A stretch of DNA of 64,000 nt from an uncultured Gammaproteobacteria bacterium. GTDB lineage: Bacteria > Patescibacteriota > Patescibacteriia > JAHIZJ01. Below, piece by piece: positions 951 through 51,062 of this stretch (position 1 is its first letter; the number at the start of each line of letters is the position of its first letter). The DNA is taken from the NCBI GenBank assembly GCA_964594455.1, contig CAZQLY010000001.1:97-64096 (forward strand), written 5' to 3'. Position numbers and translations under genes: made by a program. The notes under the pieces were generated by a model. That model made no database searches, was not told the origin of the DNA, and was given only the letters and a program-made list of their open reading frames with translations.

Positions 951-1169
951 ATTTATAAGCAAGAGTTGAGGGGTATTCGTTTTTAAACCTTTTAACTAAA
1001 AGGTTTAAAACAGTGGATAAACCATATTGACCAGGAAGGAGTGAAAGGAATAAAATATAGTTGAAAGAGACGGGCTTTCCCCGCATCAAGTGCGGGATAA
1101 ACTAGGCTCGTTCTTTTCATTGTGAGTTGGTGTTCACTTGGCAATTCTGCTGAAAAGGAGGTATCTGAA

Positions 1170-2093
1170 ATGAAAGGCAATACCTGGCTCGGTCCGCCCA
1201 CGATCCTGCTTCTCATCCTCGGCCTGTGTGTCGTCCTCTCAGGCTGTGGGGATGAAGGGAATGAAGTCACTGGAGTTGAAACCGAAGAGATCACTGAGCT
1301 TCAATTGATTTCCGAGGAAGAGGCTCGAGACGTTGTTTATGTCGCGGGAATCGATGAGGAACAGATCGTCTATTTCGATGTTGTTCCTTATGATCTATCT
1401 GGTTCCAGTGAATTCGAGGTAGCGTGGATTGCTGTCATCAACGCAGATGAACAGTTCTTGGGTACGTTTGTTAATGCGTTCACAGGAGAATTGTTGTCTG
1501 TGAATACAAATGTGCCCGAGAGGATATCTGCACGGCTTGATGACCTTGGCCTGAACGAGGAGTCTAAGAAACTCCGAGGCATCAATCACTATGAGAGTTA
1601 TCCCTGGGGCTATGATTTGCCTACGCCGTTTGGTAATCACCGACTGACCTGTGGCTATGGTTGCGGATATCATACTGGTTCGAACCATTACGCTGTTGAC
1701 CTTACCCTGAGTCACGGTGAGTGTGTTCCCGCACCAGGCTCTGGTTGGTGTATGTTTGCCGGCGATCGCGGAGATGGATATGGCCGTCAGGTTATTATCT
1801 TAGGTGGTCAGGCCAATGGCTCCAACCGGTACGTTTACCGTATGGCTCACTTCAGCTCGATCTCCGTTGTTCCCGGTTGGTGGATCGACAAGGGTAGAGG
1901 GGTAGGAGCCGCGGGTTGTACTGGCAATTGCACGGGGACGCATGTGCACTTCTCAATACACAGAGGGTATTACTCTGGGGGGCGCATTTATGGTAATAGT
2001 GTTCCTCTGGATCGCTGGCCCGGCCCGAACGATCGGGTGGACTACTTCAACCGCAATAGCACTTGGCAGTTTTCTTTCAATTACTGCCACTAG
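1170..2093 (+). CDS. M23 family metallopeptidase lipoprotein (LytM-like peptidoglycan endopeptidase)
   Basis: RBS AAAGGAGG 6 nt upstream of ATG 1170. Lipobox LSGC. M23 motifs HYAVDL (HxxxD) and THVHFSIH (HxH). G+C visibly far above flanks. Confidence 0.75.
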   Translation: MKGNTWLGPPTILLLILGLCVVLSGCGDEGNEVTGVETEEITELQLISEEEARDVVYVAGIDEEQIVYFDVVPYDLSGSSEFEVAWIAVINADEQFLGTFVNAFTGELLSVNTNVPERISARLDDLGLNEESKKLRGINHYESYPWGYDLPTPFGNHRLTCGYGCGYHTGSNHYAVDLTLSHGECVPAPGSGWCMFAGDRGDGYGRQVIILGGQANGSNRYVYRMAHFSSISVVPGWWIDKGRGVGAAGCTGNCTGTHVHFSIHRGYYSGGRIYGNSVPLDRWPGPNDRVDYFNRNSTWQFSFNYCH

Positions 2094-2902: not shown

Positions 2903-3571
2903 ATGGATATACACGGAATTATACTTTTAATTATTGCTGCTTTAGAGCTAATATTATTGCTTTATTTACTTTTTACTCGCTCAAAAGGGCATATTATATA
3001 TGCGTTTACCATATTTACGGTTGGGGTTATTTTTTGGGTGATGGGGAATGGTCTTTATCGTTTGGTAAAAACTAATGAGTTAGCATTTTTATGGATAGAT
3101 ATAAATCAATTTGCAGCCATGGTCATCGCGGTAGGATTGGTATATCTGTCGTTATCTTTTCCTTATTTAGAAAAAAGGATAACCAAAATAATACTGGCAG
3201 TGTGGGTTTTTATTTTGTTTGTTTTTGCGTACTTATTGTTTTTTACAGACTCTGTAATAAAAGGTGTATCTGGTCCAATCAGCGATCGTTTTGCTGAGAA
3301 AGGCTCGTTGTACCATATGTATGCGATAGTGTTTTTACTTATGTTTGTTTGGGCATTTGTTAACTTTTTTAAAAAGTACGGGCGAACCGCAGGTGTACAA
3401 AAGTGGCAAGTAGGAGTTCTGTCTGTAGGTTTAATTGGATCAGCAATCTTTGGCACTCTGTTTGATTTATTCCTGCCTTGGTTTGGCGGCCCTCAATATT
3501 TTTATCTGGGACCAGAATCTTCGGTCATATGGTTAGCTTTTACAGTCTATATTGTATTTAAAAAAGCTTAG
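2903..3571 (+). CDS. stand-alone multi-TM protein homologous to N-terminal 7TM sensor region of the downstream histidine kinase (paralog 1)
   Basis: 222 aa, about 6-7 TM helices. Pattern ...L(R/F)xxxKxxINxxFF...W(V)..(T)N... shared with paralogs 2/3 and residues 1-250 of the 6103-8859 kinase. Confidence 0.6.
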   Translation: MDIHGIILLIIAALELILLLYLLFTRSKGHIIYAFTIFTVGVIFWVMGNGLYRLVKTNELAFLWIDINQFAAMVIAVGLVYLSLSFPYLEKRITKIILAVWVFILFVFAYLLFFTDSVIKGVSGPISDRFAEKGSLYHMYAIVFLLMFVWAFVNFFKKYGRTAGVQKWQVGVLSVGLIGSAIFGTLFDLFLPWFGGPQYFYLGPESSVIWLAFTVYIVFKKA

Positions 3572-4195
3572 ATGGCTCTCCAAATCTACATTTTAATATT
3601 TGAGTCAATACTACTTTTACTCTTGGCTTTTTATGTTTGGCTGAGAAATCCAAAGCAAGCAATCAATATTTCATTTTTTGTAATGGTGCTGGGAGCGGCT
3701 GTTTGGGTTGGGACAAATGGTATTTTTGAAGAGACTCAGAGTCAGTTAATGGGAAGGCTCACTTTTACAGGTGCAATTATGATCGCTGCAGCATTCTTAT
3801 ATTTTTCATTTTTATTTCCTTACAAAGCTCGTTTTGTTAAATGGTATGTTCATTTATTATCAATAGTTCCTGCTGTTGTGCTTAATGCAGTTTTGTTTAC
3901 CTCTGATTTATTCGTGGGTGGAGTTATCTCTGAGGACACTATGGAACAAGGGCCTTTTTATCATGTGTTTGCGGTTTATTTTTTGATTATGTGGGCTTGG
4001 GGGATTTATAATTTAGTAGAAAAGTACAAAAGAGCAGACGGACTACATTACTGGCAATTAAAAAACACTTTTTATGCTTTAAGTGTTTCACTATTAGCAG
4101 GTGTTACTACCAATTTAGTAATGCCGTGGTTGTTTCACATACAATATTATGGTTGGGTCGGGCCAATGTTCTCAATAGTGTTTTTTGGTTCATAA
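3572..4195 (+). CDS. stand-alone 7TM sensor-domain paralog 2
   Basis: 207 aa. Near-identical to paralog 3 over WLRNPKQAINISFFVMV. Shares C-terminal motif HYWQLKNTFYALS...GWVGPMFSIVFFG. Confidence 0.6.
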   Translation: MALQIYILIFESILLLLLAFYVWLRNPKQAINISFFVMVLGAAVWVGTNGIFEETQSQLMGRLTFTGAIMIAAAFLYFSFLFPYKARFVKWYVHLLSIVPAVVLNAVLFTSDLFVGGVISEDTMEQGPFYHVFAVYFLIMWAWGIYNLVEKYKRADGLHYWQLKNTFYALSVSLLAGVTTNLVMPWLFHIQYYGWVGPMFSIVFFGS

Positions 4196-4223
4196 GCTAT
4201 ATACTGTTTAAGAAAAACGTTTA

Positions 4224-4880
4224 ATGGGATTGATTAATTACATTTTAATATTCGAAGCTATTTTACTTCTGTTTCTTGCTTTTTATGTTTGGTTGAGGAA
4301 CCCGAAACAGGCAATTAATATTTCTTTCTTTGTTATGGTTTTCGGATCGGCTATTTGGGTATTTAGTAATGCTACTGATTATGTTTATGAGAAACTATTT
4401 TTAACACAATTTACTTACATAGGAGCCATACTAATAGCTTCGGGGTTCTATTATTTTTCTTATTACTTCCCTTATAGAAGAAGTAGTATGAATATGATTT
4501 TAAGCTGGTTTGTGAATATTATCTCAGTTTTCTTGATAGCAAGTTTGTTTATTAACAATCTTTTTTATAGCAATATTAATTATAATGACGTTAATTCAAA
4601 GGTTTTTGCCGGACCCACATTTCACATATTTAATATATTTTTTATCGTTGTTTGGATCCTGGGAATTATAAATTTGATACTTAAATACAAAATTGCAGAT
4701 GGAATACACCATTGGCAGATAAAAAACACATTTTTTGCATTAAGCATATCGCTAGTAGCTGGAACAACAACGAATCTAATTTTGCCTTGGATATTTGATG
4801 TATGGACATTTGGCTGGGTCGGGCCTATGTTTTCAATCGTCTTTTTTGGGTTTTTGAGTTATATATTGTTTAAGAAGTAG
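4224..4880 (+). CDS. stand-alone 7TM sensor-domain paralog 3
   Basis: 218 aa tandem paralog. Confidence 0.6.
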   Translation: MGLINYILIFEAILLLFLAFYVWLRNPKQAINISFFVMVFGSAIWVFSNATDYVYEKLFLTQFTYIGAILIASGFYYFSYYFPYRRSSMNMILSWFVNIISVFLIASLFINNLFYSNINYNDVNSKVFAGPTFHIFNIFFIVVWILGIINLILKYKIADGIHHWQIKNTFFALSISLVAGTTTNLILPWIFDVWTFGWVGPMFSIVFFGFLSYILFKK

Positions 4881-4906
4881 TTATAAAACGGATATTAATA
4901 TTCTTT

Positions 4907-6097
4907 ATGAAGTATCTTAAAAAAAGCATTAGAGAGATTGATCACTTAGGAAATTATCCGATTATTGATACAATAGAATCCCCGATTGGTCCAAAGGTAA
5001 AAATAAAAGGAAGAGAGTATTTATTATTCAGTTCGAATAGTTATTTAGGCATTACTACAAATCAACGGGTTGTAAAATCTTCAATTAATGCAATAAAAAA
5101 ATATGGTACTGGCTCTGGTTCATCAAGAGTTGTTGCGGGTACATTTGATATTCACACCAAACTTGAAAATGAGATCGCGCTTTTCAAAGAAAAAGAAGCG
5201 GCCATGGTATTAACCAGCGGTTATTCTACAAATGTAAGTTTAATTCCTGCATTAGCCAATGTATTCTCTATATATGGAAAGAAACCAGAAATTGAAACAG
5301 TGATCTTTAGTGACAGACTTAATCACGCTAGTATAATTGATGGAATAAAATTATCCGGTTGTAGGGTAATTGTATACAATCACCGTGATATTATGTCTTT
5401 GGAAAAAGCACTTGAGGAAAACAAGGGTTGTCGCAAATTAATAATAACTGATAGTATTTTTAGCATGGATGGAGACATTGCACCTTTAGATAAAATAGTA
5501 GAATTAAAAAAAAGATACAGTGCCCTATTAATGATAGATGAAGCACACGCAACCGGAGTATTTGGTAAACATGGAAAAGGTATTGCTAACTTTTATAATG
5601 TTAGTAAAGATGTTGATATTATAATGGGCACATTAAGTAAATCTTTCGGGTCTATAGGAGCCTATGTTGCAGGTGATAATGATATTATTCGTTTATTAAA
5701 AGTATCTGTTAGAGGTTATGTTTTTTCTACAGCTCTTACACCACCAGATATTTCTACCAGTAGGGAAGTAATTGCAATACTTAATGAGAATCCCGATTAT
5801 CCTAAAAAGATATTAGATTTAGCTAATTATTTAAGAGTAGGATTAAACAAAATTGGGTTTAACACACTAGGTAGCGAAACACAAATAGTGCCAATACTCA
5901 TTGGTGATATGATCAAATCTTTAAAGTTTCAATCAGAATTAAAAAAAAGAAGAATTATTGCGCCATGTATTCAGTGGCCTGCAGTAGAAAGAGATAAGAG
6001 TAGAATACGTTTTTCGGTAATATTGACACACACAAAAGAAGATATTGACTTTTTAATAAAATCGTGTAGAGAAGTCAAAAACAAACTAAATATTTAA
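4907..6097 (+). CDS. PLP-dependent alpha-oxoamine synthase family acyltransferase (AONS/KBL/SPT/CqsA-like)
   Basis: 396 aa. PLP-lysine motif GTLSKSFGSIGAYVAG. Also ...DEAHATGVFG.. and N-terminal substrate region typical of the class II aminotransferase / alpha-oxoamine synthase family. Confidence 0.75.
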   Translation: MKYLKKSIREIDHLGNYPIIDTIESPIGPKVKIKGREYLLFSSNSYLGITTNQRVVKSSINAIKKYGTGSGSSRVVAGTFDIHTKLENEIALFKEKEAAMVLTSGYSTNVSLIPALANVFSIYGKKPEIETVIFSDRLNHASIIDGIKLSGCRVIVYNHRDIMSLEKALEENKGCRKLIITDSIFSMDGDIAPLDKIVELKKRYSALLMIDEAHATGVFGKHGKGIANFYNVSKDVDIIMGTLSKSFGSIGAYVAGDNDIIRLLKVSVRGYVFSTALTPPDISTSREVIAILNENPDYPKKILDLANYLRVGLNKIGFNTLGSETQIVPILIGDMIKSLKFQSELKKRRIIAPCIQWPAVERDKSRIRFSVILTHTKEDIDFLIKSCREVKNKLNI

Positions 6098-6102
6098 AAT
6101 CT

Positions 6103-8859
6103 ATGTTAAGTGTATTATTAATTATTGCCGGTTGTGGAGATATAATTTTAGGTTTGATTGTTTTGCGTGCGGGATACAAGAAGAAATCAAATGTATTGTT
6201 TTTTATTTTTGCATCTATTATTGGGATTTGGGTCTTAACAAATTTTCTAATTGGATATGGTGAAGATATATTTTGGTTAAAACTAGCATATGCTCTGGGG
6301 CCATTTATTTATTCATTGAGTTTAATATGGATACTCAATTTTCTATTTGGAAAAGTAAGAAGAACTTATCTTATCGCTATTTTAGTTATTTCTTTATCTT
6401 TTTCTGTATTATCATTTATTAATGGTTATATTGTTAAGGATGTTAATGAGTTATATGTGGGAGGGTTTGAGGGCGAACTGGGAATCTTTTTTCTTCCATA
6501 TACGGTTTTTTCTATTTTTATGACAGTACTAAATGTTGTTGCTGTAATATACGGAGTAAAAAAAAGTAAAGGACAAAGAAAACAGCAACTAGTATATGTA
6601 CTGTCCGGCTATTCTATTTTTGGTATAGGCGCTTTATTTGCTTCATTTATTTTGCCGTCTTTTGGATTCACTAAGTATATACCGTTAGATTCTGTGTCAT
6701 CGTTGGCTTTTTTAGGATTTACATCATACGCAATAGTAAGACATCGTTTATTAGATATTCGCATCATAGTTACAAGATCAGTAGTTTACTTCTTCCTGAT
6801 CCTGTTTGTTACTCTGGCGTTTACTACGATGACATTCTTGACCGGTTTGTTTATCCAAGAACTCGGCGGGTCTCAGACCTTTACTACGATATTGGTTTCA
6901 CTGATTATCGTATTTGGATTTGATCCGTTGAAACGCTTGCTGGGTCGGATCACAGATGCGGTATTCTTTAAGAGTGAGATTAACTACACAAAAGCCACCC
7001 AGATATTGACTCAGATGATCAGCACCAAGATTGAGCTGGACGAGGTTATTAATTCTACCAATGAGAAGCTAAAGGATATATTAAAAATCAAAGAAGCTAA
7101 TATTCTAATTCAAACAAAGAATAAGCAATCCTTTGTTTTGCGTAAAAACGGCAATAGCAATGGTCGTTCCTTGAGACTGGACTCAAAAAGCTCCTTAGCA
7201 GCCTATGTAATAAATAGGCAAAAGATATCCGTCTTGGAAGAATTGGAGCGCCGGATATCTGATACTACCAATGATCGGGAGCGTAAGAAGCTGGAACGCT
7301 CGCGCTCGGACTTCGAAGCGCTGGGTGCGGATGTGGTGGCGCCGATCATCCTGGAGGGTGAGGTGACCGGCCTTTTTGTGCTCGGCGGCAAGCGCTCTGG
7401 CGATACTTACAACAATAATGATCTAAATATTCTCAACACCCTGGGGCCTTTGATGGGTTCGGCGATCGAGAAATCCAGGCTTTATGATGAGGTGAAATCA
7501 TTTGGTGAAAAGATGAAAGTCGAGGTGGAAAGAGCCACAGCTGATCTCCAGCTGGCCAATGTCGAGCTGAAGAATCGCAATGTTTATTTGAATGCCTTGC
7601 AGAATATCGGCAATATCATCACGCGCTCGCTTGATTTCAAAAAAGTTACCCAGACCATTGCCGATGGCATATCCACTGAGCTGGGCTATATCGGCGGCGT
7701 GATTATTCTGAAAGGCGAAGGCGAGACTACTCATCCGGCTGCGATGACTATGACTACGCTGACCCGAGCCGCCTTGAAACTCTTGCCCAAGAAGCTTCCT
7801 GAGTTCAAGGGCAAACTTTCTGACAAAGATCTGGCCACTGAAGCCATGCGTTCCGGGACTACCCAGATCAGTGACAAGCTGGCTGATTTCTTGAATCCGC
7901 CCATTCCCAAAGCTATTTGCGCAGCCATGCAGAAGTTGGTCAAAGCCCAGACCATCATTGCCGTGCCCATCCCTTCAGAGGTCGCTATCATCGGCAGTAT
8001 TGTTTTCGTCATCCAGAAGCCGAAGAGGGAAGTATCTGAAGACGAAGTCCAGATGATGAAAGCCTTGGCTGACCAGATGGGTATCGTGACCAGAAACGTG
8101 CAGTTGGTCGAAGAACTGCGCGATACAAATTTGGAACTAGAAAAAGCTAACGAGCATTTAAAAGAATTGGACGAAGCCAAAAACGAATTTATATCTATTG
8201 CCTCGCACCAATTGCGTACGCCTTTGACTGGAATCAAAGGCTATCTAGCCATGATTGTGGATGGCGACTTTGGCAAGGTACCGGCCCAAATGTTTGATAT
8301 TTTGAAACAAGTATTGGAAGCTTCGAAGCGCATGATCCGTTTGGTTAACCTATTCTTGAACATTACCAAGATCGAAGCTGGCAAATTCACCCTGGAAAAG
8401 AAACCAACTGACATAGTAGAATTAGTCCAATCGGAAATAACTGAATTGATCAAAGTAGCCGAAGATAAGGGCTTGAAAATAGAATTCAAAAAACCAAAAA
8501 CTAAACTGCCTGATGTTACGATCGACGGTGATAAACTAAAAGACGTGGTGCTGAATTTGATCGACAATGCTATCAAGTATACAGACAAAGGAAAGATAAC
8601 TGTTTCAGTGGAGAAACTGAACGGTGATGTGCGCGTCTCTGTCAAAGATACCGGCCGGGGTATTCCGCATGATGATGCCAAAAAACTTTTCTCCAAATTC
8701 GTACGTGGTGAGGGTATAGCTCAAGTTCAGCCAGATGGCTCTGGACTAGGTCTTTATATCGCTAAACGCATAGTTGATGCTCACAAGGGCGAGATTTGGG
8801 TGGAGAGCGAAGGATTGGGTAAGGGTTCAACGTTTATCTTCACAATCCCAGCGAAATAG
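6103..8859 (+). CDS. sensor histidine kinase (N-terminal 7TM domain, GAF-like domains, HisKA, HATPase_c; no receiver)
   Basis: 918 aa. H-box SIASHQLRTPLTGIKGY. N/G boxes LIDNAIKYT, DTGRGIP, GSGLGLYIAKRIV. Confidence 0.85.
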   Translation: MLSVLLIIAGCGDIILGLIVLRAGYKKKSNVLFFIFASIIGIWVLTNFLIGYGEDIFWLKLAYALGPFIYSLSLIWILNFLFGKVRRTYLIAILVISLSFSVLSFINGYIVKDVNELYVGGFEGELGIFFLPYTVFSIFMTVLNVVAVIYGVKKSKGQRKQQLVYVLSGYSIFGIGALFASFILPSFGFTKYIPLDSVSSLAFLGFTSYAIVRHRLLDIRIIVTRSVVYFFLILFVTLAFTTMTFLTGLFIQELGGSQTFTTILVSLIIVFGFDPLKRLLGRITDAVFFKSEINYTKATQILTQMISTKIELDEVINSTNEKLKDILKIKEANILIQTKNKQSFVLRKNGNSNGRSLRLDSKSSLAAYVINRQKISVLEELERRISDTTNDRERKKLERSRSDFEALGADVVAPIILEGEVTGLFVLGGKRSGDTYNNNDLNILNTLGPLMGSAIEKSRLYDEVKSFGEKMKVEVERATADLQLANVELKNRNVYLNALQNIGNIITRSLDFKKVTQTIADGISTELGYIGGVIILKGEGETTHPAAMTMTTLTRAALKLLPKKLPEFKGKLSDKDLATEAMRSGTTQISDKLADFLNPPIPKAICAAMQKLVKAQTIIAVPIPSEVAIIGSIVFVIQKPKREVSEDEVQMMKALADQMGIVTRNVQLVEELRDTNLELEKANEHLKELDEAKNEFISIASHQLRTPLTGIKGYLAMIVDGDFGKVPAQMFDILKQVLEASKRMIRLVNLFLNITKIEAGKFTLEKKPTDIVELVQSEITELIKVAEDKGLKIEFKKPKTKLPDVTIDGDKLKDVVLNLIDNAIKYTDKGKITVSVEKLNGDVRVSVKDTGRGIPHDDAKKLFSKFVRGEGIAQVQPDGSGLGLYIAKRIVDAHKGEIWVESEGLGKGSTFIFTIPAK

Positions 8860-9094: not shown

Positions 9095-10711
9095 ATGAAA
9101 GACAATAATCCACAGGGTCTATCCACAATCGCGCTAGTATTAATCACAATAGTTGTGATCGCATCCGCGGGTTTGATTTGGTGGGAATTCAATAAACAGG
9201 AAACCGAAGAAGACAACGTGGTTATTAATAGCCAAACCAATACTACAGAAAATGTTAATTCTTCTGTTAATACCTCAGATTGGCTGACTTATACAAATGA
9301 TGAGTATGGGTATTCACTTAATTACCCAAGCACGTGGTTTATGGAAGAGCGAGTAATAACTTATGAAAATAATAATGTTGATCAGGCATATTGGTATATA
9401 AATATTACTCCCGAAAACCCAAGTCAGAGTGATATTCAAACACAGTTTGCCATCACTCTATTTAATGCCTTGTCAGACGAAGCACCTGATCAAACATTTC
9501 TACGCGTAACGGGTAAAGATATATCTAATCTGAATAAAGAAATAAAGAATGTTGATGGACTTGAAGGATATTATTACAAAGATGTGCCTGCACTTACTCC
9601 ATACAATATGATACTAATTGAAAAAGATAATTTGTTATTTTCTTTAGAACAAGGAGAAATTTCAGAAGACGATTATTTCGATATTATCGATAACGTTCAG
9701 TTTATAGATAGTAATGTAGATACTTCTAGTTGGTTGATTTACACGAATGAGGAGTATGGGTACTCTTTTGAGTATCCACAGAACTATCAAGTGAAGGAAT
9801 TAGTAAATGTTGATGTAGAGGGGTATGTGAATTTAAGTAATAATGATGCAAGTATGAGTTTATATGTCATGGACGGACCGCTTGATCCTATGCATATCCA
9901 AGGTATATATGGAGAAAGGACAGCCGATGAAATAACTACGGTATCTGTTAGTCTCCAAACGGGATATCAATATCGTGAAGGAGATGCGGGGTGTGGTGGA
10001 GATAACGTCCAAACATCATTAACGAATGGCATGATATTAAAGATACAGTTTACTGAATGTATGGATACAACAAATATCCTGTATTCAAATATTGCTTTGC
10101 GCAATCAAATCTTATCAACATTTGTATTTTTTGATAGTTCAGTTGACGTTAATTCCATGTTAAACTCTAACACTAATTCCAATACAAGCAGTAATACAAA
10201 TTCAAGTAATACTAATGAATCAGAAAGCACGGGAGATAAATCATCTGAACCAGAAGATGAAGATATTAATGATTCGTCCTGGTCCGTCTATGAAAATGAT
10301 TTGAGGAAATTTAGGATACAGTATCCCGGTGGCTGGGAGGCTGTTGAGTATCAGGATTATACAGTGGGGTTTCAGCCAGAGGGGTGCTCGTATTATGAAA
10401 CTTATCCAAGCGATACAGCTTATCCGATTCATATTTCGTATAGTACGGATCATAAATCAATCCAATCTATTTTAAAAAACCACCCCACAGATTACTATGA
10501 TAAATATGAACTTGGCAACGTTACTGGTTATGGTATATACGAAGATTATGATGATATTGAACAGGTTTATGCACCGGTGCCCGCAAGCCGAACAGTATTT
10601 ATACAAGGGCAGTATTATGTCGAGACCGAGGATGATTGTACAATGGACAAGGAATATTTTCGTAATACATATTTATCTATGTTAGAGACATTTGAAGTCA
10701 TTGAGGATTAA
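9095..10711 (+). CDS. membrane-anchored exported protein with N/S/T-rich linkers and two copies of a conserved W..Y.N.EYG(Y/F)S..YP module
   Basis: 538 aa. N-terminal TM helix. Repeats DTSDWLTYTNDEYGYSLNYP and DTSSWLIYTNEEYGYSFEYP. Low-complexity SNTNSNTSSNTNSSNTNESE. Confidence 0.55.
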   Translation: MKDNNPQGLSTIALVLITIVVIASAGLIWWEFNKQETEEDNVVINSQTNTTENVNSSVNTSDWLTYTNDEYGYSLNYPSTWFMEERVITYENNNVDQAYWYINITPENPSQSDIQTQFAITLFNALSDEAPDQTFLRVTGKDISNLNKEIKNVDGLEGYYYKDVPALTPYNMILIEKDNLLFSLEQGEISEDDYFDIIDNVQFIDSNVDTSSWLIYTNEEYGYSFEYPQNYQVKELVNVDVEGYVNLSNNDASMSLYVMDGPLDPMHIQGIYGERTADEITTVSVSLQTGYQYREGDAGCGGDNVQTSLTNGMILKIQFTECMDTTNILYSNIALRNQILSTFVFFDSSVDVNSMLNSNTNSNTSSNTNSSNTNESESTGDKSSEPEDEDINDSSWSVYENDLRKFRIQYPGGWEAVEYQDYTVGFQPEGCSYYETYPSDTAYPIHISYSTDHKSIQSILKNHPTDYYDKYELGNVTGYGIYEDYDDIEQVYAPVPASRTVFIQGQYYVETEDDCTMDKEYFRNTYLSMLETFEVIED

Positions 10712-10750
10712 TATAATGATCAATTATTCAATAAATAAGGTATAAAAACC

Positions 10751-11500
10751 ATGGTAGAAAACATTAACCAATCATCACCCAAAGGTAATAAAACAGGCCT
10801 AATCATCCTAATCCTGGCTGCTGTCATTGTAATCGCTGGAGGTTTATGGTACGCCTTGGCTGGAACTGATGAAAATACCAACAATGAAAATAATACCAAC
10901 ACTGTAGCCAATGAGAATGCAAACACGAATGTTAATACCAACACTGCAGCAAACACCAACGCAGAAACAAATTCCAATACCAATACTGCAACCAACACCA
11001 ATTCCTCTGTGGATACTTCTGATTGGCTGACTTATACGAATGAGGAGTATGGGTTTAGTTTTAAATATCCACAGGATTGGAAGCAAGAATATATATTTGA
11101 AAACGATAGTACGAAAACTGTATATGAGAAACCGCTTCAATATTCACTTATTACAAGTGCTGATGGAAATTATGAGCTTGTATTGGGTGTAAAACGTACA
11201 AACGATAAGGGAACAATTTACTATAGAACTGGTATTGGCGCAGGAGACATCAGTGAAGGTGATCCAATAATAATTATGAATACGAGCATAAGTACATGGA
11301 AGCGCGTTTTTGAGGACAAAGTTGTAGAAATTTTCCTTTTTCCAGTTGAAGAGGGAGTTTCACCAAACATAATAAACAATCACGAAGTGATAGCTAGCTT
11401 TAGTATAGTGAATAGTGATACCTTAAATTCACCTAATCTGGTTGATACTAACGAGTATAGAATAGTGCTTTCAATACTACAGTCATTGGAAGTATCATGA
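10751..11500 (+). CDS. paralog of the 9095 family (TM anchor, NTNT-rich linker, W-module)
   Basis: 249 aa. Module VDTSDWLTYTNEEYGFSFKYPQDW. Confidence 0.55.
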   Translation: MVENINQSSPKGNKTGLIILILAAVIVIAGGLWYALAGTDENTNNENNTNTVANENANTNVNTNTAANTNAETNSNTNTATNTNSSVDTSDWLTYTNEEYGFSFKYPQDWKQEYIFENDSTKTVYEKPLQYSLITSADGNYELVLGVKRTNDKGTIYYRTGIGAGDISEGDPIIIMNTSISTWKRVFEDKVVEIFLFPVEEGVSPNIINNHEVIASFSIVNSDTLNSPNLVDTNEYRIVLSILQSLEVS

Positions 11501-11583
11501 GGACCCTCTTATTAGCTAGATAGATATACTATCTAGCTAATTTGGAGGCTTTGTTCTTTCACAACCAAAAAAGGAGTCTTACG

Positions 11584-12162
11584 ATGAAAGGGACTCTGTT
11601 TATTCTAGGGTTGCTGGTCCTGGTACTTTGTTTTCCGGTACCATCAATGGCTGGTGATGAGTCGTGTTGTGGACATTCATCTCCAGGTAACCCTTACCTT
11701 TGCTATGGAGATGGAAATTGTACCTGGTGGGCGTGGCACTGCCGTCAAGATCTACCAGCATGGAGTGGTAATGCTGCAACTTGGCTAGCTAATGCTGAAA
11801 ACGATGACATCGACACTGGAACGACACCACTAGTGGGAAGCATCGCTTGTTTCCCAAATATGGCCGGAGGTGCAGGACACGTTGCCTGTGTTACAGCAGT
11901 ACACCTCGACGGTTCATTTGATGTAACGGAAATGAATTGTTGGCCAGGGTTTAATGGTGTTGATGCAAGGCTCTACTCATCGGGAAGCGCTACAGGCTTC
12001 ATCTACGGCGGCCCGGTCAACATGTATAGTCTCACCTACGCCGGTCAGTCTCCGACAGATCCATCCGGGATTCTGAAGCTCCGTCCTCTGGAGACCGTGA
12101 ACTGCTGGCTGGATGTGAATGTATTGAGCGGTAGTGCCCCGATCTCCAGCATGATACAATAA
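11584..12162 (+). CDS. secreted CHAP-domain amidase/peptidase (peptidoglycan hydrolase)
   Basis: RBS AAAAGGAG upstream. Signal peptide. CHAP catalytic Cys context GNCTWWAWHCRQD and His GAGHVACVTAV. High G+C. Confidence 0.65.
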   Translation: MKGTLFILGLLVLVLCFPVPSMAGDESCCGHSSPGNPYLCYGDGNCTWWAWHCRQDLPAWSGNAATWLANAENDDIDTGTTPLVGSIACFPNMAGGAGHVACVTAVHLDGSFDVTEMNCWPGFNGVDARLYSSGSATGFIYGGPVNMYSLTYAGQSPTDPSGILKLRPLETVNCWLDVNVLSGSAPISSMIQ

Positions 12163-12282: not shown

Positions 12283-12984
12283 ATGAACAACCTAAACCAA
12301 AAAGGGTTATCAACAACAACTTTAACTATTATTATCCTGGCAATTATTATTATTGCCGGAGGTTTATGGTACGCTCTTTCCGGAACCAATGACAATACCA
12401 ACAATTCTAATAACACCAACACTGTAGCAAATGGGAATGCAAACATGAATGTGAATACCAGCACTGCGGTAAACACCAACACAGAAACAAATTCCAATAC
12501 TAATACTTCAACCAACACCAATTCGTCTGTTGATACTTCGGATTGGGAACTATACGTTAACTCTAATCATAATTTTAGCCTAAAATTTCCCAGAGACTGG
12601 GGGTTTATCAGTGAATTTGATGGTAGTTTTAATCCTGATATTTTGAGCGCATCCTATATGACAACAAGTTCGTTTGTTACGGGTACAGAAGATTCTGGAC
12701 TAATGTTGTCATTTACATTTGGCAGTGGTAAAACGATAAACGATATATTGAATGAGGTTCATACGACCTCTGAAGGAAGTAGCAAACTGGTTATAAGTCA
12801 TAAAGAAGTAACTTTATCCTCAGGTACATCTACTACAGTGGTTAAATACGATCCTACGATAAAAGGACATACAACAGAGTATTTGTTTCAAACTGACTCT
12901 GGTGTGATTGCATTGGGTCTTTTATCAGAGAACGATGAAACTGTTATGGTTTTGAATACCTTTTTATTGGTTAGTAACCCATAA
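12283..12984 (+). CDS. paralog of the 9095/10751 family
   Basis: 233 aa. N-terminus and linker nearly identical at the DNA level to the 10751 gene. Module VDTSDWELYVNSNHNFSLKFPRDW. Confidence 0.55.
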   Translation: MNNLNQKGLSTTTLTIIILAIIIIAGGLWYALSGTNDNTNNSNNTNTVANGNANMNVNTSTAVNTNTETNSNTNTSTNTNSSVDTSDWELYVNSNHNFSLKFPRDWGFISEFDGSFNPDILSASYMTTSSFVTGTEDSGLMLSFTFGSGKTINDILNEVHTTSEGSSKLVISHKEVTLSSGTSTTVVKYDPTIKGHTTEYLFQTDSGVIALGLLSENDETVMVLNTFLLVSNP

Positions 12985-13063: not shown

Positions 13064-15379
13064 ATGAAGTGGTTTATTTTCGCAGGCGTTATTATGGGTT
13101 CGTTATTCGTTGGAATCCAGGAATGCAGTGGTTACGCTTGTCCATTGATTGAGATGGAGCTTGTTCAGGGGTTTGGTGGCACGCACGTAGGTGCAGATTA
13201 CGATGCAGATGCTGGTGACCACGTCTATGCCCTTGCTGATGGTAGGGTGTGCTTCTACAAAAGTGATGCAAGTTGTATGGGGGGAGGTAATGGCAAGGAC
13301 TGTGATTGTGTGGATGGGGAAGTAATCTTTGTTCGTCATCAAAAACCCAGTGGGACCTACTTCATCGCGATGTATGGTCATATTAAGAACGTCCCGTCTG
13401 AATTTGCTGCAATCACGCAATACACTGAGAGTGGGCCCATTGTAGAAGCAGGGGAACAGATTGCTGAGATTGGTGTTTATGCTCCTTGTAGGGACTGTAG
13501 TCCTCGTTGCGATCACCTTCATCTGGGGATCTGGGATAGCGAAAACCAAATGCCATCTAGTGGATGGGGATATGGTAATGCATGCTATAAAAATCCTTCA
13601 GGTTGCTGGGTTGCTCCTGAGTCATTTCTAGGAACCTGTACTGATCCTCAGGTCCTCACCTTCCTTACTTCTTTCGTCGACTTCACTGTCCAGGAAGAAG
13701 GACCGTACTTTCCCAACCAGGTGATTCATTGCACTATGAGATGGAAGAATGAGGGAAGTGCCACTTGGTCAAGCACTCCGGGTGACAACTACGTTGAATT
13801 GGGTTCGTGTAACATCAACCAGAACATCGTACCTAGCTGGCTCTATGATTCTAGCTTGGGTTGGATCAGCAACTTGGTGCCGTGTACATTCGATGGAGAC
13901 GATGTCGGCCCAGGCGAGACTGCGACATTTGCTTTCCCTGGCAAGATTCCGAGTGATGCTCAAGCAGGACAGACGCCGGTTTACTTCGGCGCTGTCTACG
14001 ATGCGGCTATCATGGAGGAATGGGAAGGTAACGGTATCACTCTGACAATCGTCGAAACTCAGCCTGCCCCTGAAAACACCCCTGACGTCGTTCGGCTGAG
14101 GCCGGATGGAGAAGGGGGGTGTGATTTCCGGGTAGCAGCCAGTGATGGAGATGATGCCTACGACTATGGTTCCTGGCTGGCCATTGATTGGATGCCGGAT
14201 ACCTGGTTTGTGGCAGATGTGCACAACGATGGTCTGGATGATCTGGTCTTGGTCCGGGGCGATGACATCTACGTGTCTAAGTCCTATGACGACCATTTCC
14301 GAGACTCGCCATTGCTCTGGAAGTCCAATTGGGGCAATCCGTCCGGCACCTACGGCTATCTGCCGTGGATGTACTACGGAGACAGCCGGGTTGATCTGAT
14401 CCATTACCGGGCAGTCAGCGCCACCCAGGTCAGATGGTGGGGACTGAAGTCGATGGACACCTACTATTCGGATTTGGGTGTGTTGGTCAGCAATGCTGGC
14501 AACCAGAGTGATTACTTTTTCAGCGTTGGTTCATTCCATGGGCAACGCCGGGAGGATATCATCTTTGGCCGGAGACTTTCTGGGTCAAACCAGCTGCACT
14601 ACCGGGTCAGTGAGCAGATTACGGATGGCAGTTTCCAGGATAACGGATGGTGGGATGGCAATTTCGGGTTCTACTATTCTCGCATCCTGGTGGCTGACAT
14701 TGACGGCGATGACTATGACGATCTGGTGGGCGTGACTCATCAGGGCAGCGATGTCATGCGGGTAACCTGGGGCCGGAATACTCACAGCGAATCGTTCACT
14801 TATGGTTCTCTTCTGAGTTCCGACTTTGGCAACGGTGACAGCCAGTACTTCATTGCTGACGTTGACCAAGATGGCCACGATGATCTCATCTATGTCGGTG
14901 GCAACGGCAATATCTATTGGGCCAGGACCTATCACGATGGATCCGCCTGGAGACTTTCTTCTCGAAACACCTGGATCAACTACTTTGCCCAGGGATCGGC
15001 TGATGAGTTCAGGTTCGGCAACGTGACCGATCAGATCCCAAGCGGTCAGGGCAGGTTTACTCCTGAGAATCCGGGAGTGAGCTTGAAGGAAGTGGCGACA
15101 ACCACTCAGCCGGGTGTTTCCAGACTGCAGCTGTCAGCTTCACCCAACCCCACCAACCTCTCCACGGTCATTGCCTATGCCTTGCCGCAAGCCGGCCAGG
15201 TGAATCTGAGTGTCTACAACGTGGCTGGACGTTTGGTCAAGACGTTGGTCGACTGCCGACAGCCAGCGGGCGAGTACAGCGTTACTTGGGACTCAAAGCA
15301 GGAGGACTTTGGGATCTACTTCTGCCGCCTCAGCTTGGGGAACGATCTTTCCTCTCGGAAAATCGTTCTGCTGAAGTGA
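13064..15379 (+). CDS. secreted multidomain protein: N-terminal M23 peptidase, FG-GAP/VCBS-like repeats, C-terminal T9SS-type (Por_Secre_tail / FlgD-Ig-like) sorting domain
   Basis: RBS AAAGGAGAG upstream. M23 motifs HVGADYD and HLHLGIWD. Repeats D.H/D.DG.DDL(V/I). C-terminus ...NVAGRLVKTLVD...YSVTWDS...GIYFCRLSLGN...KIVLLK matches the T9SS CTD consensus. About 57% G+C. Confidence 0.7.
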   Translation: MKWFIFAGVIMGSLFVGIQECSGYACPLIEMELVQGFGGTHVGADYDADAGDHVYALADGRVCFYKSDASCMGGGNGKDCDCVDGEVIFVRHQKPSGTYFIAMYGHIKNVPSEFAAITQYTESGPIVEAGEQIAEIGVYAPCRDCSPRCDHLHLGIWDSENQMPSSGWGYGNACYKNPSGCWVAPESFLGTCTDPQVLTFLTSFVDFTVQEEGPYFPNQVIHCTMRWKNEGSATWSSTPGDNYVELGSCNINQNIVPSWLYDSSLGWISNLVPCTFDGDDVGPGETATFAFPGKIPSDAQAGQTPVYFGAVYDAAIMEEWEGNGITLTIVETQPAPENTPDVVRLRPDGEGGCDFRVAASDGDDAYDYGSWLAIDWMPDTWFVADVHNDGLDDLVLVRGDDIYVSKSYDDHFRDSPLLWKSNWGNPSGTYGYLPWMYYGDSRVDLIHYRAVSATQVRWWGLKSMDTYYSDLGVLVSNAGNQSDYFFSVGSFHGQRREDIIFGRRLSGSNQLHYRVSEQITDGSFQDNGWWDGNFGFYYSRILVADIDGDDYDDLVGVTHQGSDVMRVTWGRNTHSESFTYGSLLSSDFGNGDSQYFIADVDQDGHDDLIYVGGNGNIYWARTYHDGSAWRLSSRNTWINYFAQGSADEFRFGNVTDQIPSGQGRFTPENPGVSLKEVATTTQPGVSRLQLSASPNPTNLSTVIAYALPQAGQVNLSVYNVAGRLVKTLVDCRQPAGEYSVTWDSKQEDFGIYFCRLSLGNDLSSRKIVLLK

Positions 15380-29390: not shown

Positions 29391-29433
29391 GAACCACGCA
29401 TTGTGATTAGCTTGGGTGGTTCTTTTTGTTTTT
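29391..29433 (+). terminator. intrinsic terminator (gaaccac...gtggttc + T5)
   Basis: 7-bp stem then T-run after flavodoxin. Confidence 0.5.
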
Positions 29434-29461
29434 GAGTGGCGCGCAAAAAAAGGAGGGTCGC

Positions 29462-29905
29462 GTGAAACGTAACGTTTCCCGATGCGTTTGCGGTCTAATG
29501 TTCTTGTTGGTCATCTTTGGAGCCGTTTCCTGTGGAGGCTACAGCGAGCAGGACGAGCAGGCGATCGCCCAAGGCCGAGCCATCGCCCAGCGTTTCCGTA
29601 CCTGGATCGACCAGAATGGGGAATACCCTGAAAGTGACAGTATGTATGTCGAGATCGGTTTGCGCGGTGGAGAAGCCGCCAATGTCTATACCAGCCTACC
29701 GGTCGTGATCACGTCCTGGAGTAACGTCCCCTGCGGGACGGGAGACTATTTCATCTCTCAGATGATGTCATCCGGGGATGGAGACTTTGTTTTCCAGATT
29801 GATCTGAAGGGGCCGACCGATGACGATGGTTACTCCAAGTGGACTTATCGTTTCCGGCTGGATCGTACCATGTCGGGCGTCATCCAAGAGGAAAAAATGG
29901 ATTAA
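29462..29905 (+). CDS. high-GC hypothetical lipoprotein
   Basis: GTG start with AAGGAGGG RBS. Lipobox AVSCG. About 55% G+C. Confidence 0.5.
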   Translation: MKRNVSRCVCGLMFLLVIFGAVSCGGYSEQDEQAIAQGRAIAQRFRTWIDQNGEYPESDSMYVEIGLRGGEAANVYTSLPVVITSWSNVPCGTGDYFISQMMSSGDGDFVFQIDLKGPTDDDGYSKWTYRFRLDRTMSGVIQEEKMD

Positions 29906-30344: not shown

Positions 30345-30897
30345 AGGCCTTAAGAAGACCGGATGGTTGCTCCATTGTGTGTAATAAGCGATGGGGAGGA
30401 AAGTCCGAACACCCCTGCGTTTTTCAAGGCGTAGGAGCATGGCACCTTCGAAAAGAAGGCGGAAATAAGCAAAGGATACAAAAAGTTCTATAGACTTTTT
30501 GGATTCTAACCAAGCCCAGGGAAAGTGTCACAGAGACTATACCGCTCTCCTTTCCGTTAATGACTTGGCGGATTGGACAGTAAGGGTGAAAAGAGTGGGC
30601 CCACCTAAGCGTGGGATAGCTCGCTTCGGCGGGTAAAGTAAGAGCCCACAGGTTCGGTTAGTAATAACCGAATGTGACAAACCCTGCCTGGTGCAAGACC
30701 GAGTAGGCCCCGACCGTTAAGGCCAGGGGCGGGTAGGTTGCTAGAGCCCCGCAGCAATGTTGGGCCCAGATAGATGACCATCCACCTACGCCCTTCGGGT
30801 TTCGGCGGACGCAGTCCAATAATTTAAGGACAGCGTCACTCGAAGCTCGGAGAGCGTAGAGTGACAGAATTCGGCTTATAGGTCTTCTTAAGGCATT
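30345..30897 (+). ncRNA. rnpB: RNase P RNA (bacterial type), unusually long (about 550 nt)
   Basis: P4/CR-I GGAGGAAAGUCCGAACAC. AGGGUGAAA.G...GGGCCCACC. CAGAUAGAUGACCAUCCAC. ACAGAAUUCGGCUUAUAGGUC. P1 pairing 30347-60 with 30881-94. Confidence 0.8.
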
Positions 30898-38627: not shown

Positions 38628-39187
38628 TTTAAGTTAAAAACAAAATAGCTGTTGTTAGCTGTTTTTTTATTGGTTTTTATGCTACCCCTTGACAAAATCA
38701 GGCAAATGAGCTAAACTACTCGGTTAAACAATAGCCATTTTAAATATTAGGCGCAAAGCTATACAGGATCTGGGAGGGTTTTTTGTTGGCTTCTGGAAAA
38801 TGGGTGCATTTGGCTTCTTACTTTGAGTTCTCTCTTCTAATTAGACCACGGAAGGCGAGATGAAGAAGCCTATTAATCAGCACCCATTTTTTAGGAGCTA
38901 ATATAGGTTCATTGATATTAGTTCTAAGGCGCATATTTGGAGGGGTGGTGGAACACGGCAAGACAAATCGTTCGGGTTTCGACTCGAACTGTCCTGTCAC
39001 TCCATCAGGTACCGTTTCCGGCTTTCTAGTCGGAACAAGCGGGCCAACACCTCCAAATATGTTCTTTTGAGAGCAAATAGCGGATAATCAATCTGTCGGT
39101 GTTTTTTCTGACTGATTGATTATACGTTGTATATAGATTGATGTATTTTCTCTTTTTTTGGTGTCCCTGTTTCAAGGAGGACGTCTC

Positions 39188-50374: not shown

Positions 50375-50377
50375 ACC

Positions 50378-51058: not shown

Positions 51059-51062
51059 TAAT

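What the first reader, a model, noticed from the sequence alone, without database searches (positions are those of the whole stretch)
13064..15379. M23 peptidase-FG-GAP protein ending in a Bacteroidota-type T9SS C-terminal sorting domain
**Seen in sequence:**
- The last roughly 80 aa (...NLSTVIAYALPQAGQVNLSVYNVAGRLVKTLVD..AGEYSVTWDS....GIYFCRLSLGN...KIVLLK) match the Por_Secre_tail / T9SS CTD consensus nearly position by position.

**Inference:**
- A T9SS signal has no obvious role in an organism with the gene content seen here. No T9SS components are visible in the window.
- It supports acquisition from an FCB-group donor, and raises the question whether the CTD is inert, repurposed (Ig-like adhesion), or whether the host lineage is diderm.
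Basis: partly seen in the sequence, partly recalled or inferred. Interest (0 to 1): 0.55.

Follow-up and report, generated by a model that had tools for sequence, protein, structure and literature searches.

The report
T9SS-type tail on Patescibacteria wall hydrolase
A secreted cell-wall-cutting enzyme in an ultra-small Patescibacteria (CPR) bacterium ends in a sorting tail normally used only by the type IX secretion system of Bacteroidota-type bacteria; the tail recurs across this phylum, which is reported to lack that system, and has been kept by selection, so it probably does a different job there.

Summary
ORF 13064..15379 (+, 771 aa) encodes a signal peptide, an intact M23 endopeptidase head, an Ig-like module, an FG-GAP-like region and a terminal 82-aa domain. 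That domain passes the curated T9SS type A model (TIGR04183, 31.9 vs 23 bits) but just misses Pfam PF18962 (25.3 vs 27).

The host is a Patescibacteria/CPR bacterium. No T9SS or outer-membrane gene was found among the 49 window ORFs scanned.

- The gene belongs to a modular hydrolase family found in several CPR lineages, including Ca. Kerfeldbacteria.
- A membrane-anchored partner gene always precedes it.
- It often lies beside HisKA_7TM-GAF kinases or on integrase/recombinase elements.
- Heads swap (M23/CHAP), and in one relative the tail is replaced by a dockerin.
- The CTD is under purifying selection (pN 0.36–0.43 vs pS 0.67–0.86), whereas the linker looks neutral.
- The raised GC is family-wide, so it does not mark recent transfer.

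Best reading: a Sec-exported peptidoglycan hydrolase whose CTD has been repurposed as a T9SS-independent docking tag. Absence of T9SS genome-wide could not be tested.

The parts
13064..15379 (+). Complete gene for the modular hydrolase (771 aa plus stop)
   Evidence: ORF list. Identical protein P0001 is on a 198.9 kb NCBI contig.
13064..13132 (+). N-terminal Sec-type signal peptide (aa 1-23, MKWFIFAGVIMGSLFVGIQECSG)
   Evidence: Read directly from the sequence: a Lys at position 2, then a 16-residue hydrophobic core and a small-residue c-region. No predictor was available. All family members have an equivalent N-terminus.
13124..13657 (+). M23 metallo-endopeptidase head (aa 21-198) with a Cys-rich insert
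   Evidence: PF01551 30.2 bits against GA 28.7. H41, D45, Y104, H106, H151 and H153 are invariant in 19 family heads. The head profile matches M23 structures such as lysostaphin, LytM, zoocin A and ShyA at E 1e-13 to 1e-7.
13658..14068 (+). Ig-like module (aa 199-335) that follows the head in the family, whether the head is M23 or CHAP
   Evidence: No Pfam hit. All-beta in the AF2 model. 61% identical to P0002. Detected after the head in most of the 73 relatives that share a non-CTD module, though only weakly alignable in P0084.
14069..14983 (+). FG-GAP-like, probably beta-propeller region (aa 336-640); the variable middle of the family
   Evidence: FG-GAP_3 24.9 bits against 26.9, sub-threshold. 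Homologues P0087 and P0089 pass. 55% identical to P0002 but replaced by an unrelated beta-rich region in P0084 and L005.
14984..15130 (+). Unconserved linker (aa 641-689)
   Evidence: pN is about equal to pS (0.60 vs 0.60 and 0.70 vs 0.68) between family members. pLDDT below 50.
15131..15376 (+). T9SS type A-like C-terminal domain (aa 690-771), ending ...RKIVLLK
   Evidence: TIGR04183 31.9 against 23 bits. PF18962 25.3 against 27. Seven-strand model with pLDDT 88.6. The profile matches T9SS cargo CTDs 8glj_D and 8glk_D, PorU and gingipain end to end, but FlgD only centrally. pN 0.36-0.43 against pS 0.67-0.86.
12283..12984 (+). Partner gene (233 aa): N-terminal TM anchor, Asn/Thr-rich linker, globular domain. 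It ends 79 nt upstream of the hydrolase gene.
   Evidence: 56-61% identical to the equivalent gene in L001. A gene of the same design precedes the hydrolase in all eight contexts, with a gap of 49-84 nt in seven of them and 315 nt in L006. The L007/L009 copy has a weak PsbP_2 hit.
11542..12162 (+). Truncated second family member: a CHAP head plus the first ~45 residues of the Ig module
   Evidence: CHAP PF05257 57.9 bits. 40-41% identical to the N-termini of the 737-834-aa CHAP-Ig-...-CTD proteins P0146 and P0113. Its last 42 aa are 83% identical to P0084 residues 200-241.
9095..11500 (+). Two PsbP_2-like membrane-anchored paralogues of the partner gene (538 and 249 aa)
   Evidence: PF18933 35.6 and 31.0 bits. 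N-terminal similarity to the partner. The 538-aa protein has a homologue upstream of the cassette in L013.
2903..8859 (+). Sensor cluster: three HisKA_7TM-only proteins, an aminotransferase and a 918-aa GAF-HisKA-HATPase kinase
   Evidence: Pfam. The kinase is 41.5% identical over its full length, and one 7TM protein 49.8% identical, to genes flanking the hydrolase in Ca. Kerfeldbacteria L011. Similar kinases flank the cassette in L002, L006 and L007/L009.

Best explanation
The gene encodes a Sec-exported, catalytically competent M23 peptidoglycan endopeptidase. The head is followed by an Ig-like module, an FG-GAP-type binding region and a C-terminal beta-sandwich homologous to the type A sorting domain of T9SS cargo. 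It is one member of a modular hydrolase family resident in Patescibacteria. In this family the head (M23 or CHAP), the middle region and the C-terminal tag (CTD, or dockerin in one relative) are exchanged by recombination. The gene is always preceded by a small membrane-anchored partner gene. It is often linked to a HisKA_7TM-GAF sensor kinase cluster or carried on an integrase/serine-recombinase element. Patescibacteria are reported to lack an outer membrane, and the T9SS is reported only from the FCB superphylum. So the CTD most likely does not act here as a T9SS export signal. The inference is that it serves as a T9SS-independent docking or retention tag. It would hold the secreted enzyme on a surface structure, either the bacterium's own or its host cell's, while the head cuts peptidoglycan cross-links, most plausibly during episymbiotic attack or attachment, or during wall remodelling. 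The partner is inferred to be an immunity, regulatory or anchoring protein. Shown: domain identities, intact catalytic motifs, CPR residency, the conserved neighbourhood, mosaicism and purifying selection on the CTD. Inferred: T9SS independence, the docking role, the target wall and the partner's role.
For: Domains. Host: the orthologue is in a named Patescibacteria MAG, housekeeping genes are syntenic with the window at 40-61% aa identity, and the gene content is typical of fermentative CPR, including DUF4012. Family in CPR: P0235 and P0236 [Patescibacteria group bacterium], P0104 [Ca. Kerfeldbacteria]. L013 has the pair embedded between FtsW/MurG-like genes and HrcA-GrpE-DnaK-DnaJ. Partner gene in all eight contexts. 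Kinase linkage. Mobile-element contexts. Mosaic structure: M23 head 67% identical to P0084, body 52% identical to the CHAP-headed P0002. Dockerin in place of the CTD in P0231, 33.2 against 22.9 bits. Selection: CTD pN 0.36-0.43 against pS 0.67-0.86, linker pN about equal to pS. Only one CTD ORF per locus in 175 kb scanned. No T9SS or outer-membrane Pfam family in the 49 window ORFs scanned or in the precomputed annotations of about 120 neighbouring genes. Literature: the T9SS is unique to the FCB superphylum (PMC12421860, PMC12398890); Patescibacteria are described as monoderm or without an outer membrane (PMC8871954, PMC12102498); peptidase and lysozyme homologues are essential for epibiotic growth of a Saccharibacterium (PMC12102498).
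Against: No whole genome of any carrier could be searched for SprA/Sov, PorV, PorU or GldKLMN, so T9SS absence rests on the literature and on about 240 kb of local context. The tail keeps everything a real T9SS signal has: extreme C-terminal position, the NP(F)N start and the [RQ]K-hydrophobic-LLK end. That is also what a functional export signal would look like. If family members were repeatedly re-imported from T9SS-bearing donors, the purifying selection measured could have acted in those donors. The docking function is an analogy drawn from the dockerin swap and from targeting domains of other M23 enzymes; no receptor was identified. Four contexts (L002, L006, L007/L009, L008) are assigned to CPR only by the shared partner and kinase genes, not by a taxon name.
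Confidence: 0.5

Rival explanations
1. One reading: a recent horizontal acquisition from an FCB-group donor, with the CTD an inert leftover that has not yet decayed.
For: The nearest named tails outside the family are from Zixibacteria, Ignavibacteria, Calditrichaeota, Balneolaceae and Bacteroidota. Gene GC is 0.52 (GC3 0.57) against a window mean GC3 of 0.41. Relatives sit on integrase/recombinase elements.
Against: Named whole-protein relatives are all CPR. The cassette, with a CPR-type partner gene, is shared by lineages whose housekeeping proteins are only 40-61% identical. The GC offset is present in hosts from 0.39 to 0.60 GC and tracks host GC. CTD pN is well below pS whereas the linker is neutral. 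The ORF is intact in every member.
Confidence: 0.15
2. The tail is a working T9SS signal: these particular lineages have an outer membrane or a T9SS-like translocon that has been missed.
For: The tail passes TIGR04183 in all five close members at 31.9-43.9 bits. It has a strictly terminal position and a conserved terminal motif. The protein also has the required Sec signal peptide. Whole genomes were not searchable.
Against: The T9SS is described as unique to the FCB superphylum (PMC12421860, PMC12398890) and CPR as lacking an outer membrane (PMC8871954, PMC12102498). No T9SS or outer-membrane family appears in any scanned or precomputed annotation. There is one CTD ORF per locus in 175 kb, unlike the dozens per genome typical of T9SS organisms. 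A dockerin can replace the CTD.
Confidence: 0.07
3. Host-directed mimicry: the CTD lets the secreted hydrolase dock onto T9SS surface components (for example PorV or Sov) of an FCB-group host cell, giving the epibiont host-specific targeting of its wall-cutting enzyme.
For: The sequence features recognised by the T9SS are conserved. Patescibacteria are episymbionts that use lytic enzymes (PMC12102498). The tag is exchangeable, as expected for a host-range determinant. The family is on mobile elements.
Against: There is no evidence about the hosts of these lineages. T9SS recognition of CTDs is periplasmic, not at the outer face. Nothing in the data distinguishes this from generic surface docking.
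Confidence: 0.08
4. The tail is just a generic FlgD-type Ig-like fold with no relation to sorting. The T9SS label is an artefact of overlapping HMMs.
For: The CTD profile hits flagellar FlgD Ig domains more strongly (E 3e-6) than solved T9SS CTDs (E 1e-3). PF18962 is just below its gathering score. Foldseek ranks unrelated Ig domains as high as T9SS CTDs.
Against: FlgD matches cover only the central strands (model 20-59 of 79; query 29-83), whereas T9SS models and cargo CTDs align end to end. All 84 homologous tails are strictly C-terminal. Relatives P0087, P0089 and P0090 pass PF18962 at 38-42 bits. There is no flagellar context.
Confidence: 0.1
5. Assembly or binning artefact: an FCB gene chimerically joined to a CPR contig.
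For: The GC of the gene differs from that of its flanks.
Against: The same gene, with the same partner gene, is found in independent assemblies from JGI, NCBI, ENA and Logan. These include a 265 kb contig syntenic with the window and a short Logan contig from another run carrying the identical partner gene.
Confidence: 0.01

Closest known systems
T9SS type A CTD cargo proteins of Bacteroidota (e.g. P. gingivalis RgpB gingipain; F. johnsoniae RemA and NucA; T. forsythia mirolase)
   Same: An N-terminal Sec signal plus a strictly C-terminal ~80-aa seven-strand beta-sandwich. Passes TIGR04183. The profile aligns end to end with the cargo CTDs 8glj_D and 8glk_D and the gingipain CTD. TM 0.64-0.66 to the mirolase and RemA CTDs.
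   Different: The host phylum is reported to lack both an outer membrane and the T9SS. There is one CTD gene per locus, not dozens per genome. In one relative the tail is replaced by a dockerin. There is no evidence of PorU cleavage or A-LPS attachment.
Lysostaphin / LytM / zoocin A: secreted M23 endopeptidases with a separate wall-targeting domain
   Same: An intact HxxxD and HxH M23 catalytic head fused to non-catalytic targeting modules. A secreted lytic enzyme, often on mobile DNA and paired with a protection gene.
   Different: The head carries a Cys-rich insert and is too divergent for single-sequence detection in the PDB. The targeting modules are Ig, FG-GAP and CTD rather than SH3b.
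Dockerin-tagged enzymes (cellulosome-type C-terminal address tags)
   Same: A C-terminal protein-docking module on a secreted hydrolase. A close relative on the same kind of element (P0231) carries Dockerin_1 in the position of the CTD.
   Different: The window protein has no dockerin, and no cohesin-like receptor was identified.
Flagellar hook-cap FlgD Ig-like domain (PF13860)
   Same: Sequence similarity over the central strands and the same general fold.
   Different: FlgD's domain is internal and lacks the terminal strands and motifs. Not flagellar here. PF13860 is below its threshold.
Peptidoglycan-hydrolase effector/immunity pairs and polymorphic toxin loci
   Same: Recombining heads on a constant delivery scaffold, a small adjacent gene encoding an envelope-anchored protein, and a mobile-element association.
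   Different: Immunity function of the partner is untested. The partner lies upstream. No dedicated secretion system is linked.

Membership tests
T9SS type A C-terminal sorting domain (TIGR04183 / PF18962) | Scores at or above the curated NCBIfam cutoff for TIGR04183 | tested here: met
   31.9 bits against 23, model 2-70 of 72. Relatives score 34.6-43.9.
T9SS type A C-terminal sorting domain (TIGR04183 / PF18962) | Scores at or above the Pfam gathering score for PF18962 | tested here: not met
   25.3 against 27 bits in the window protein. Homologues P0087, P0089 and P0090 pass at 38-42 bits.
T9SS type A C-terminal sorting domain (TIGR04183 / PF18962) | Domain lies at the extreme C-terminus of a protein with an N-terminal Sec signal | tested here: met
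   It ends at the last residue. All 84 homologous tails end within 5 aa of the terminus. The signal peptide was judged by inspection only.
T9SS type A C-terminal sorting domain (TIGR04183 / PF18962) | Seven-strand Ig-like beta-sandwich fold | tested here: met
   pLDDT 88.6 and seven strands. TM 0.64-0.66 to solved CTDs, but other Ig folds score alike, so this is not discriminating.
T9SS type A C-terminal sorting domain (TIGR04183 / PF18962) | Genome encodes the T9SS machinery (SprA/Sov, PorV, PorU, GldK/L/M/N) that recognises the domain | not testable with these tools
   None among the 49 window ORFs scanned or the neighbours' precomputed Pfam lists. Whole genomes could not be searched. The literature says the T9SS is FCB-only (PMC12421860).
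T9SS type A C-terminal sorting domain (TIGR04183 / PF18962) | CTD is cleaved by PorU and the cargo is released or attached to A-LPS | not testable with these tools
   Needs proteomics.
Peptidase family M23 | Pfam PF01551 at or above the gathering score | tested here: met
   30.2 against 28.7 bits.
Peptidase family M23 | Zinc-binding and catalytic HxxxD and HxH motifs present | tested here: met
   H41, D45, H106, H151 and H153 are invariant in 19 heads and align with the motifs of solved M23 enzymes.
FG-GAP repeat / beta-propeller | Pfam FG-GAP or FG-GAP_3 at or above the gathering score | tested here: inconclusive
   24.9 against 26.9 bits in the window protein. Homologues pass at 42.5 and 65.8. 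The full-length model is too poor to show a propeller.
FlgD Ig-like domain (PF13860) | At or above the gathering score, and part of a flagellar hook-cap protein | tested here: not met
   26.5 against 27 bits, a partial match of 40 of 79 positions. No flagellar genes in the window.
Hydrolase effector / immunity gene pair | Adjacent gene encodes a specific inhibitor of the hydrolase | not tested

The most novel reading that the evidence does not exclude
Patescibacteria have co-opted the T9SS type A CTD as a functional address tag that works without a T9SS. It would be recognised either by an unknown receptor on the epibiont's own monoderm surface, giving a new CTD-dependent surface-display route, or by T9SS surface components of FCB-group host cells, giving a host-targeting device for a wall-lytic effector. 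The tag would be exchangeable with dockerin and would spread on integrative elements together with a cognate partner protein.
Probability: 0.2. Interest if true: 0.8.

Novelty: new variant of a known kind. Interest (0 to 1): 0.5.

Why it matters
The T9SS and its C-terminal sorting domains are treated as a hallmark of the FCB superphylum and its outer membrane. Here a conserved, selected T9SS-type tail sits on a wall-lytic enzyme family in a phylum described as lacking both. That means either the domain has a second life as a docking module, or something in CPR cells or their hosts recognises it. Both options can be tested directly, for example with reporter fusions in Flavobacterium, binding assays and whole-genome T9SS scans. 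The enzyme family, with its partner gene and sensor kinase, is also a candidate part of the poorly understood toolkit by which ultra-small episymbionts attach to or breach host cell walls. In practical terms, automatic 'T9SS type A sorting domain' annotations in Patescibacteria should not be read as evidence of a T9SS.

Tried and rejected
- Exact look-ups of the window protein in the contig index failed. Only a 1.6 kb Logan contig carrying the partner gene was retrievable, so the window's upstream flank and the rest of its genome stayed out of reach.
- The full-length AlphaFold model was poor (pLDDT 44), so only the CTD-only model was used.
- Word-index searches with the M23 head alone and the partner's globular domain alone returned one and two proteins. 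The exhaustive HMMER search was what revealed the family.
- The metagenome scan added only one new short contig.
- Phage GenBank records and IMG/VR contigs hold no relative, so a prophage lysin origin was dropped.
- Promoter and terminator scans were not above chance.
- Literature searches found no description of T9SS-type CTDs in CPR.
- GC anomaly as proof of recent FCB import was rejected, because the offset recurs in every host.
- An assembly chimera was rejected because of the independent assemblies.
- A CTD phylogeny was not attempted. The window CTD is as similar to unrelated proteins' tails (45-55% identity) as to its own family's (39-49%), so 80 residues carry too little signal.
Full report
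**1. What is there**

The ORF is at exactly 13064..15379 on the + strand and encodes 771 aa. Pfam gives the following:

| Model | Residues | Bits | Gathering score | Model coverage |
|---|---|---|---|---|
| Peptidase_M23 | 40-161 | 30.2 | 28.7 | – |
| FG-GAP_3 | – | 24.9 | 26.9 | – |
| Por_Secre_tail PF18962 | 694-768 | 25.3 | 27 | 3-74 of 75 |
| FlgD_ig | 708-747 | 26.5 | 27 | 20-59 of 79 |

The curated NCBIfam model TIGR04183 (T9SS type A sorting domain) matches residues 693-768 end to end. It scores 31.9 bits against a cutoff of 23, E 9.4e-8.

Further support for the tail:
- It ends at the last residue, and in all 84 homologous tails collected it ends within 5 residues of the C-terminus.
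- A CTD-only AlphaFold model built on 45 tails is confident (pLDDT 88.6) and has seven strands.
- A profile of these tails aligns end to end with solved T9SS cargo CTDs (8glj_D, 8glk_D, PorU 6za2, gingipain 5hfs). It aligns with FlgD Ig domains only over the central strands.
- Foldseek places the mirolase, RemA and NucA CTDs at TM 0.64-0.66, but unrelated Ig domains score alike, so the fold is consistent without being discriminating.

The M23 head is divergent; a single-sequence PDB search finds nothing. It is nevertheless intact. H41, D45, Y104, H106, H151 and H153 are invariant across 19 family heads. The head profile hits lysostaphin, LytM, zoocin A and ShyA at E 1e-13 to 1e-7 through both zinc motifs. 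The N-terminus reads as a Sec signal peptide, by inspection only.

**2. Whose gene is it**

Almost every gene in the window is on the + strand, and GC is about 0.42. The gene content is glycolysis, PTAC and acetate kinase, RecJ, MurJ, FtsEX, glycosyltransferases and DUF4012.

A 265 kb JGI contig (L001) is identical to NCBI JBAYGC010000017.1, 'MAG: Patescibacteria group bacterium isolate SO_2016_GW1_116' (L003/L004). It is syntenic with the window, with housekeeping proteins 40-61% identical, and it carries the orthologue. NCBI already names that orthologue 'T9SS type A sorting domain-containing protein [Patescibacteria group bacterium]'.

No T9SS or outer-membrane family is present among the 49 window ORFs scanned. 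The literature describes the T9SS as unique to the FCB superphylum (PMC12421860, PMC12398890). It describes Patescibacteria as monoderm or without an outer membrane (PMC8871954, PMC12102498).

**3. It is a family, not a one-off**

The word-index search found only four close relatives. The exhaustive HMMER search found 19 proteins at E ≤ 1e-30. Among the top 150, 73 share a non-CTD module with the window protein. Most of these have a signal peptide, a head, an Ig module, a variable middle and a terminal CTD, and many are 650-900 aa long.

All members that carry source names are CPR:
- P0084 – Patescibacteria group bacterium
- P0235 and P0236 – Patescibacteria group bacterium
- P0104 – Ca. Kerfeldbacteria, on a 224 kb contig

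The family is mosaic:
- The window protein shares its M23 head with P0084 (67% identity) but not its middle region.
- It shares its Ig, FG-GAP and CTD body with P0002 (52%), whose head is CHAP.
- L005 and P0084 share a different middle region.
- P0231 carries a type I dockerin (33.2 against 22.9 bits) where the CTD would be.

The window also contains a truncated member at 11542..12162. It has a CHAP head 40-41% identical to the N-termini of the 737-834-aa CHAP-Ig-…-CTD proteins P0146 and P0113. Its last 42 residues are 83% identical to the head/Ig junction of P0084.

**4. Conserved neighbourhood**

In eight contexts (window, L001, L002, L006, L007/L009, L008, L011, L013) the hydrolase gene is preceded by a ~210-250-aa gene. 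The gap is 49-84 nt in seven contexts and 315 nt in L006. This partner gene encodes an N-terminal TM anchor, an Asn/Thr-rich linker and a globular domain starting 'DTS(D/N)W..Y.N'. The window's partner is at 12283..12984.

HisKA_7TM proteins and a large HisKA_7TM/GAF kinase flank the pair in the window, L011, L006, L007/L009 and L002. The window kinase is 41.5% identical over its full length to that of Ca. Kerfeldbacteria.

In L007/L009, L008 and the P0231 contig the pair lies among mobile-element genes. All three have a tyrosine integrase and a large serine recombinase. L007/L009 and the P0231 contig also have Replic_Relax, with a LexA-like repressor in L007/L009 and AbiEii in the P0231 contig. 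The P0231 element carries a second CTD-bearing protein. In L013 the pair is embedded between FtsW/MurG-like genes and the HrcA-GrpE-DnaK-DnaJ operon. Phage and viral collections hold no relative.

**5. Is the tail a relic**

Between family members the regions compare as follows:

| Region | pN | pS |
|---|---|---|
| CTD | 0.36-0.43 | 0.67-0.86 (saturated) |
| Linker | 0.60 and 0.70 | 0.60 and 0.68 |
| M23 head (window vs L001) | 0.19 | 0.68 |

The tail has therefore been maintained by selection, including the NP.N start and the [RQ]K-hydrophobic-LLK end.

The gene's GC (0.52, GC3 0.57, against a window GC3 of 0.41 ± 0.08) looked like evidence of import. But the same positive offset is seen in all eight hosts, whose GC ranges from 0.39 to 0.60. 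It is therefore a property of the gene family, or of its mobility within CPR, and not a mark of recent FCB origin.

Across 175 kb of such loci the hydrolases are the only CTD-bearing ORFs. This is unlike T9SS organisms, which carry many.

**6. Interpretation**

- **Shown:** a Sec-signal-bearing, catalytically intact M23 endopeptidase with binding modules and a genuine type A-like CTD. It belongs to a recombining, partly mobile, CPR-resident family with a fixed partner gene and frequent kinase linkage, and its CTD is under constraint.
- **Inferred:** given the reported envelope of the phylum and the FCB restriction of the T9SS, the CTD is not an export signal here. It more likely serves as a docking or retention tag. 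The arguments are its interchangeability with dockerin (a dedicated protein-docking module), its constraint, and the precedent of M23 lysins that need a separate targeting domain.
- **Possible target:** the wall attacked may be that of a host cell. Peptidase and lysozyme homologues are essential for epibiotic growth in a cultivated Saccharibacterium (PMC12102498). It could also be the cell's own wall.
- **Partner:** it accompanies M23 and CHAP heads and both CTD and dockerin tails. It is more likely a general immunity, regulatory or anchoring factor, possibly acting through the shared Ig module, than a head-specific inhibitor. This is speculation.

**7. What remains open**

Whole genomes of the carriers could not be scanned for T9SS genes. 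The taxonomic assignment of four short contexts rests on shared gene content. No receptor is known. The ultimate origin of the CTD from FCB lineages is plausible, because the nearest named non-family tails are from Zixibacteria, Ignavibacteria, Calditrichaeota, Balneolaceae and Bacteroidota. It cannot be resolved with 80 residues.

No paper in the searchable library discusses T9SS-type CTDs in CPR. The annotation pipeline does, however, already apply the label.

**8. Verdict**

This is a new variant of a known kind: a T9SS-type sorting domain conserved outside any known T9SS context. Interest is moderate (0.5). It would rise considerably if the tail proves to be a functional address tag in a monoderm episymbiont.

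Noticed in passing
window 55477-60792 (+): A 1771-aa alpha-2-macroglobulin-like protein (A2M, A2M_BRD, MG2, Big_5) with a Hint/intein-like segment (PT-HINT 1039-1151, Hom_end_hint, Vint) inserted just before the A2M domain. This may be an intein or a pretoxin-HINT inside a bacterial A2M.
   Followed up: no
window 30351-30894 (+): Bacterial class A RNase P RNA (171 bits). It spans 544 nt for a 367-position model, so it must carry large insertions.
   Followed up: no
window 53598-55353: tRNA-Asn (53598-53671) is followed by two high-GC ORFs without any Pfam hit: 53948-54571 (GC 0.57, GC3 0.67) and 54847-55353 (GC 0.53). This may be a small island integrated at the tRNA.
   Followed up: no
window 2903-8859 (+): Three tandem HisKA_7TM-only proteins, an aminotransferase and a 918-aa GAF-HisKA-HATPase kinase. 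The same 7TM/GAF kinase set flanks the hydrolase cassette in Ca. Kerfeldbacteria (kinase 41.5% and one 7TM protein 49.8% identical). Related kinases flank it in three other contexts, which suggests a conserved link between sensor and hydrolase.
   Followed up: partly
window 11542-12162 (+): A CHAP-domain ORF with elevated GC (0.50) that is a truncated member of the same hydrolase family. It stops about 45 residues into the Ig module, and its junction is 83% identical to P0084.
   Followed up: yes
window 1122-2093 (+): A second secreted M23 peptidase (53.4 bits) with elevated GC (0.51). Its head lineage is unrelated to the target's.
   Followed up: partly
window 29426-29905 (+) and 39026-39619 (-): Two further high-GC ORFs (GC3 0.63 and 0.58) with no Pfam hit. 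The first looks like a small secreted protein or lipoprotein. The second is the only sizeable minus-strand ORF in a gene-poor stretch (38627-41400) and may not be a real gene.
   Followed up: no
L007/L009 12302-14842; L008 1628-3696; ENA contig of P0231: The mobile element that carries the hydrolase pair also carries an LVIVD-repeat protein next to the integrase. In the P0231 contig the corresponding 657-aa protein has its own weak Por_Secre_tail hit, and a type I CRISPR-Cas (Cas3, Cas7) and AbiEii lie nearby.
   Followed up: no
window 49142-51974 (+): An RlpA-like DPBB lytic-transglycosylase-type protein lies directly upstream of FtsE/FtsX, a division-associated wall-hydrolase control module. 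It is a candidate housekeeping counterpart to the cassette hydrolase.
   Followed up: no
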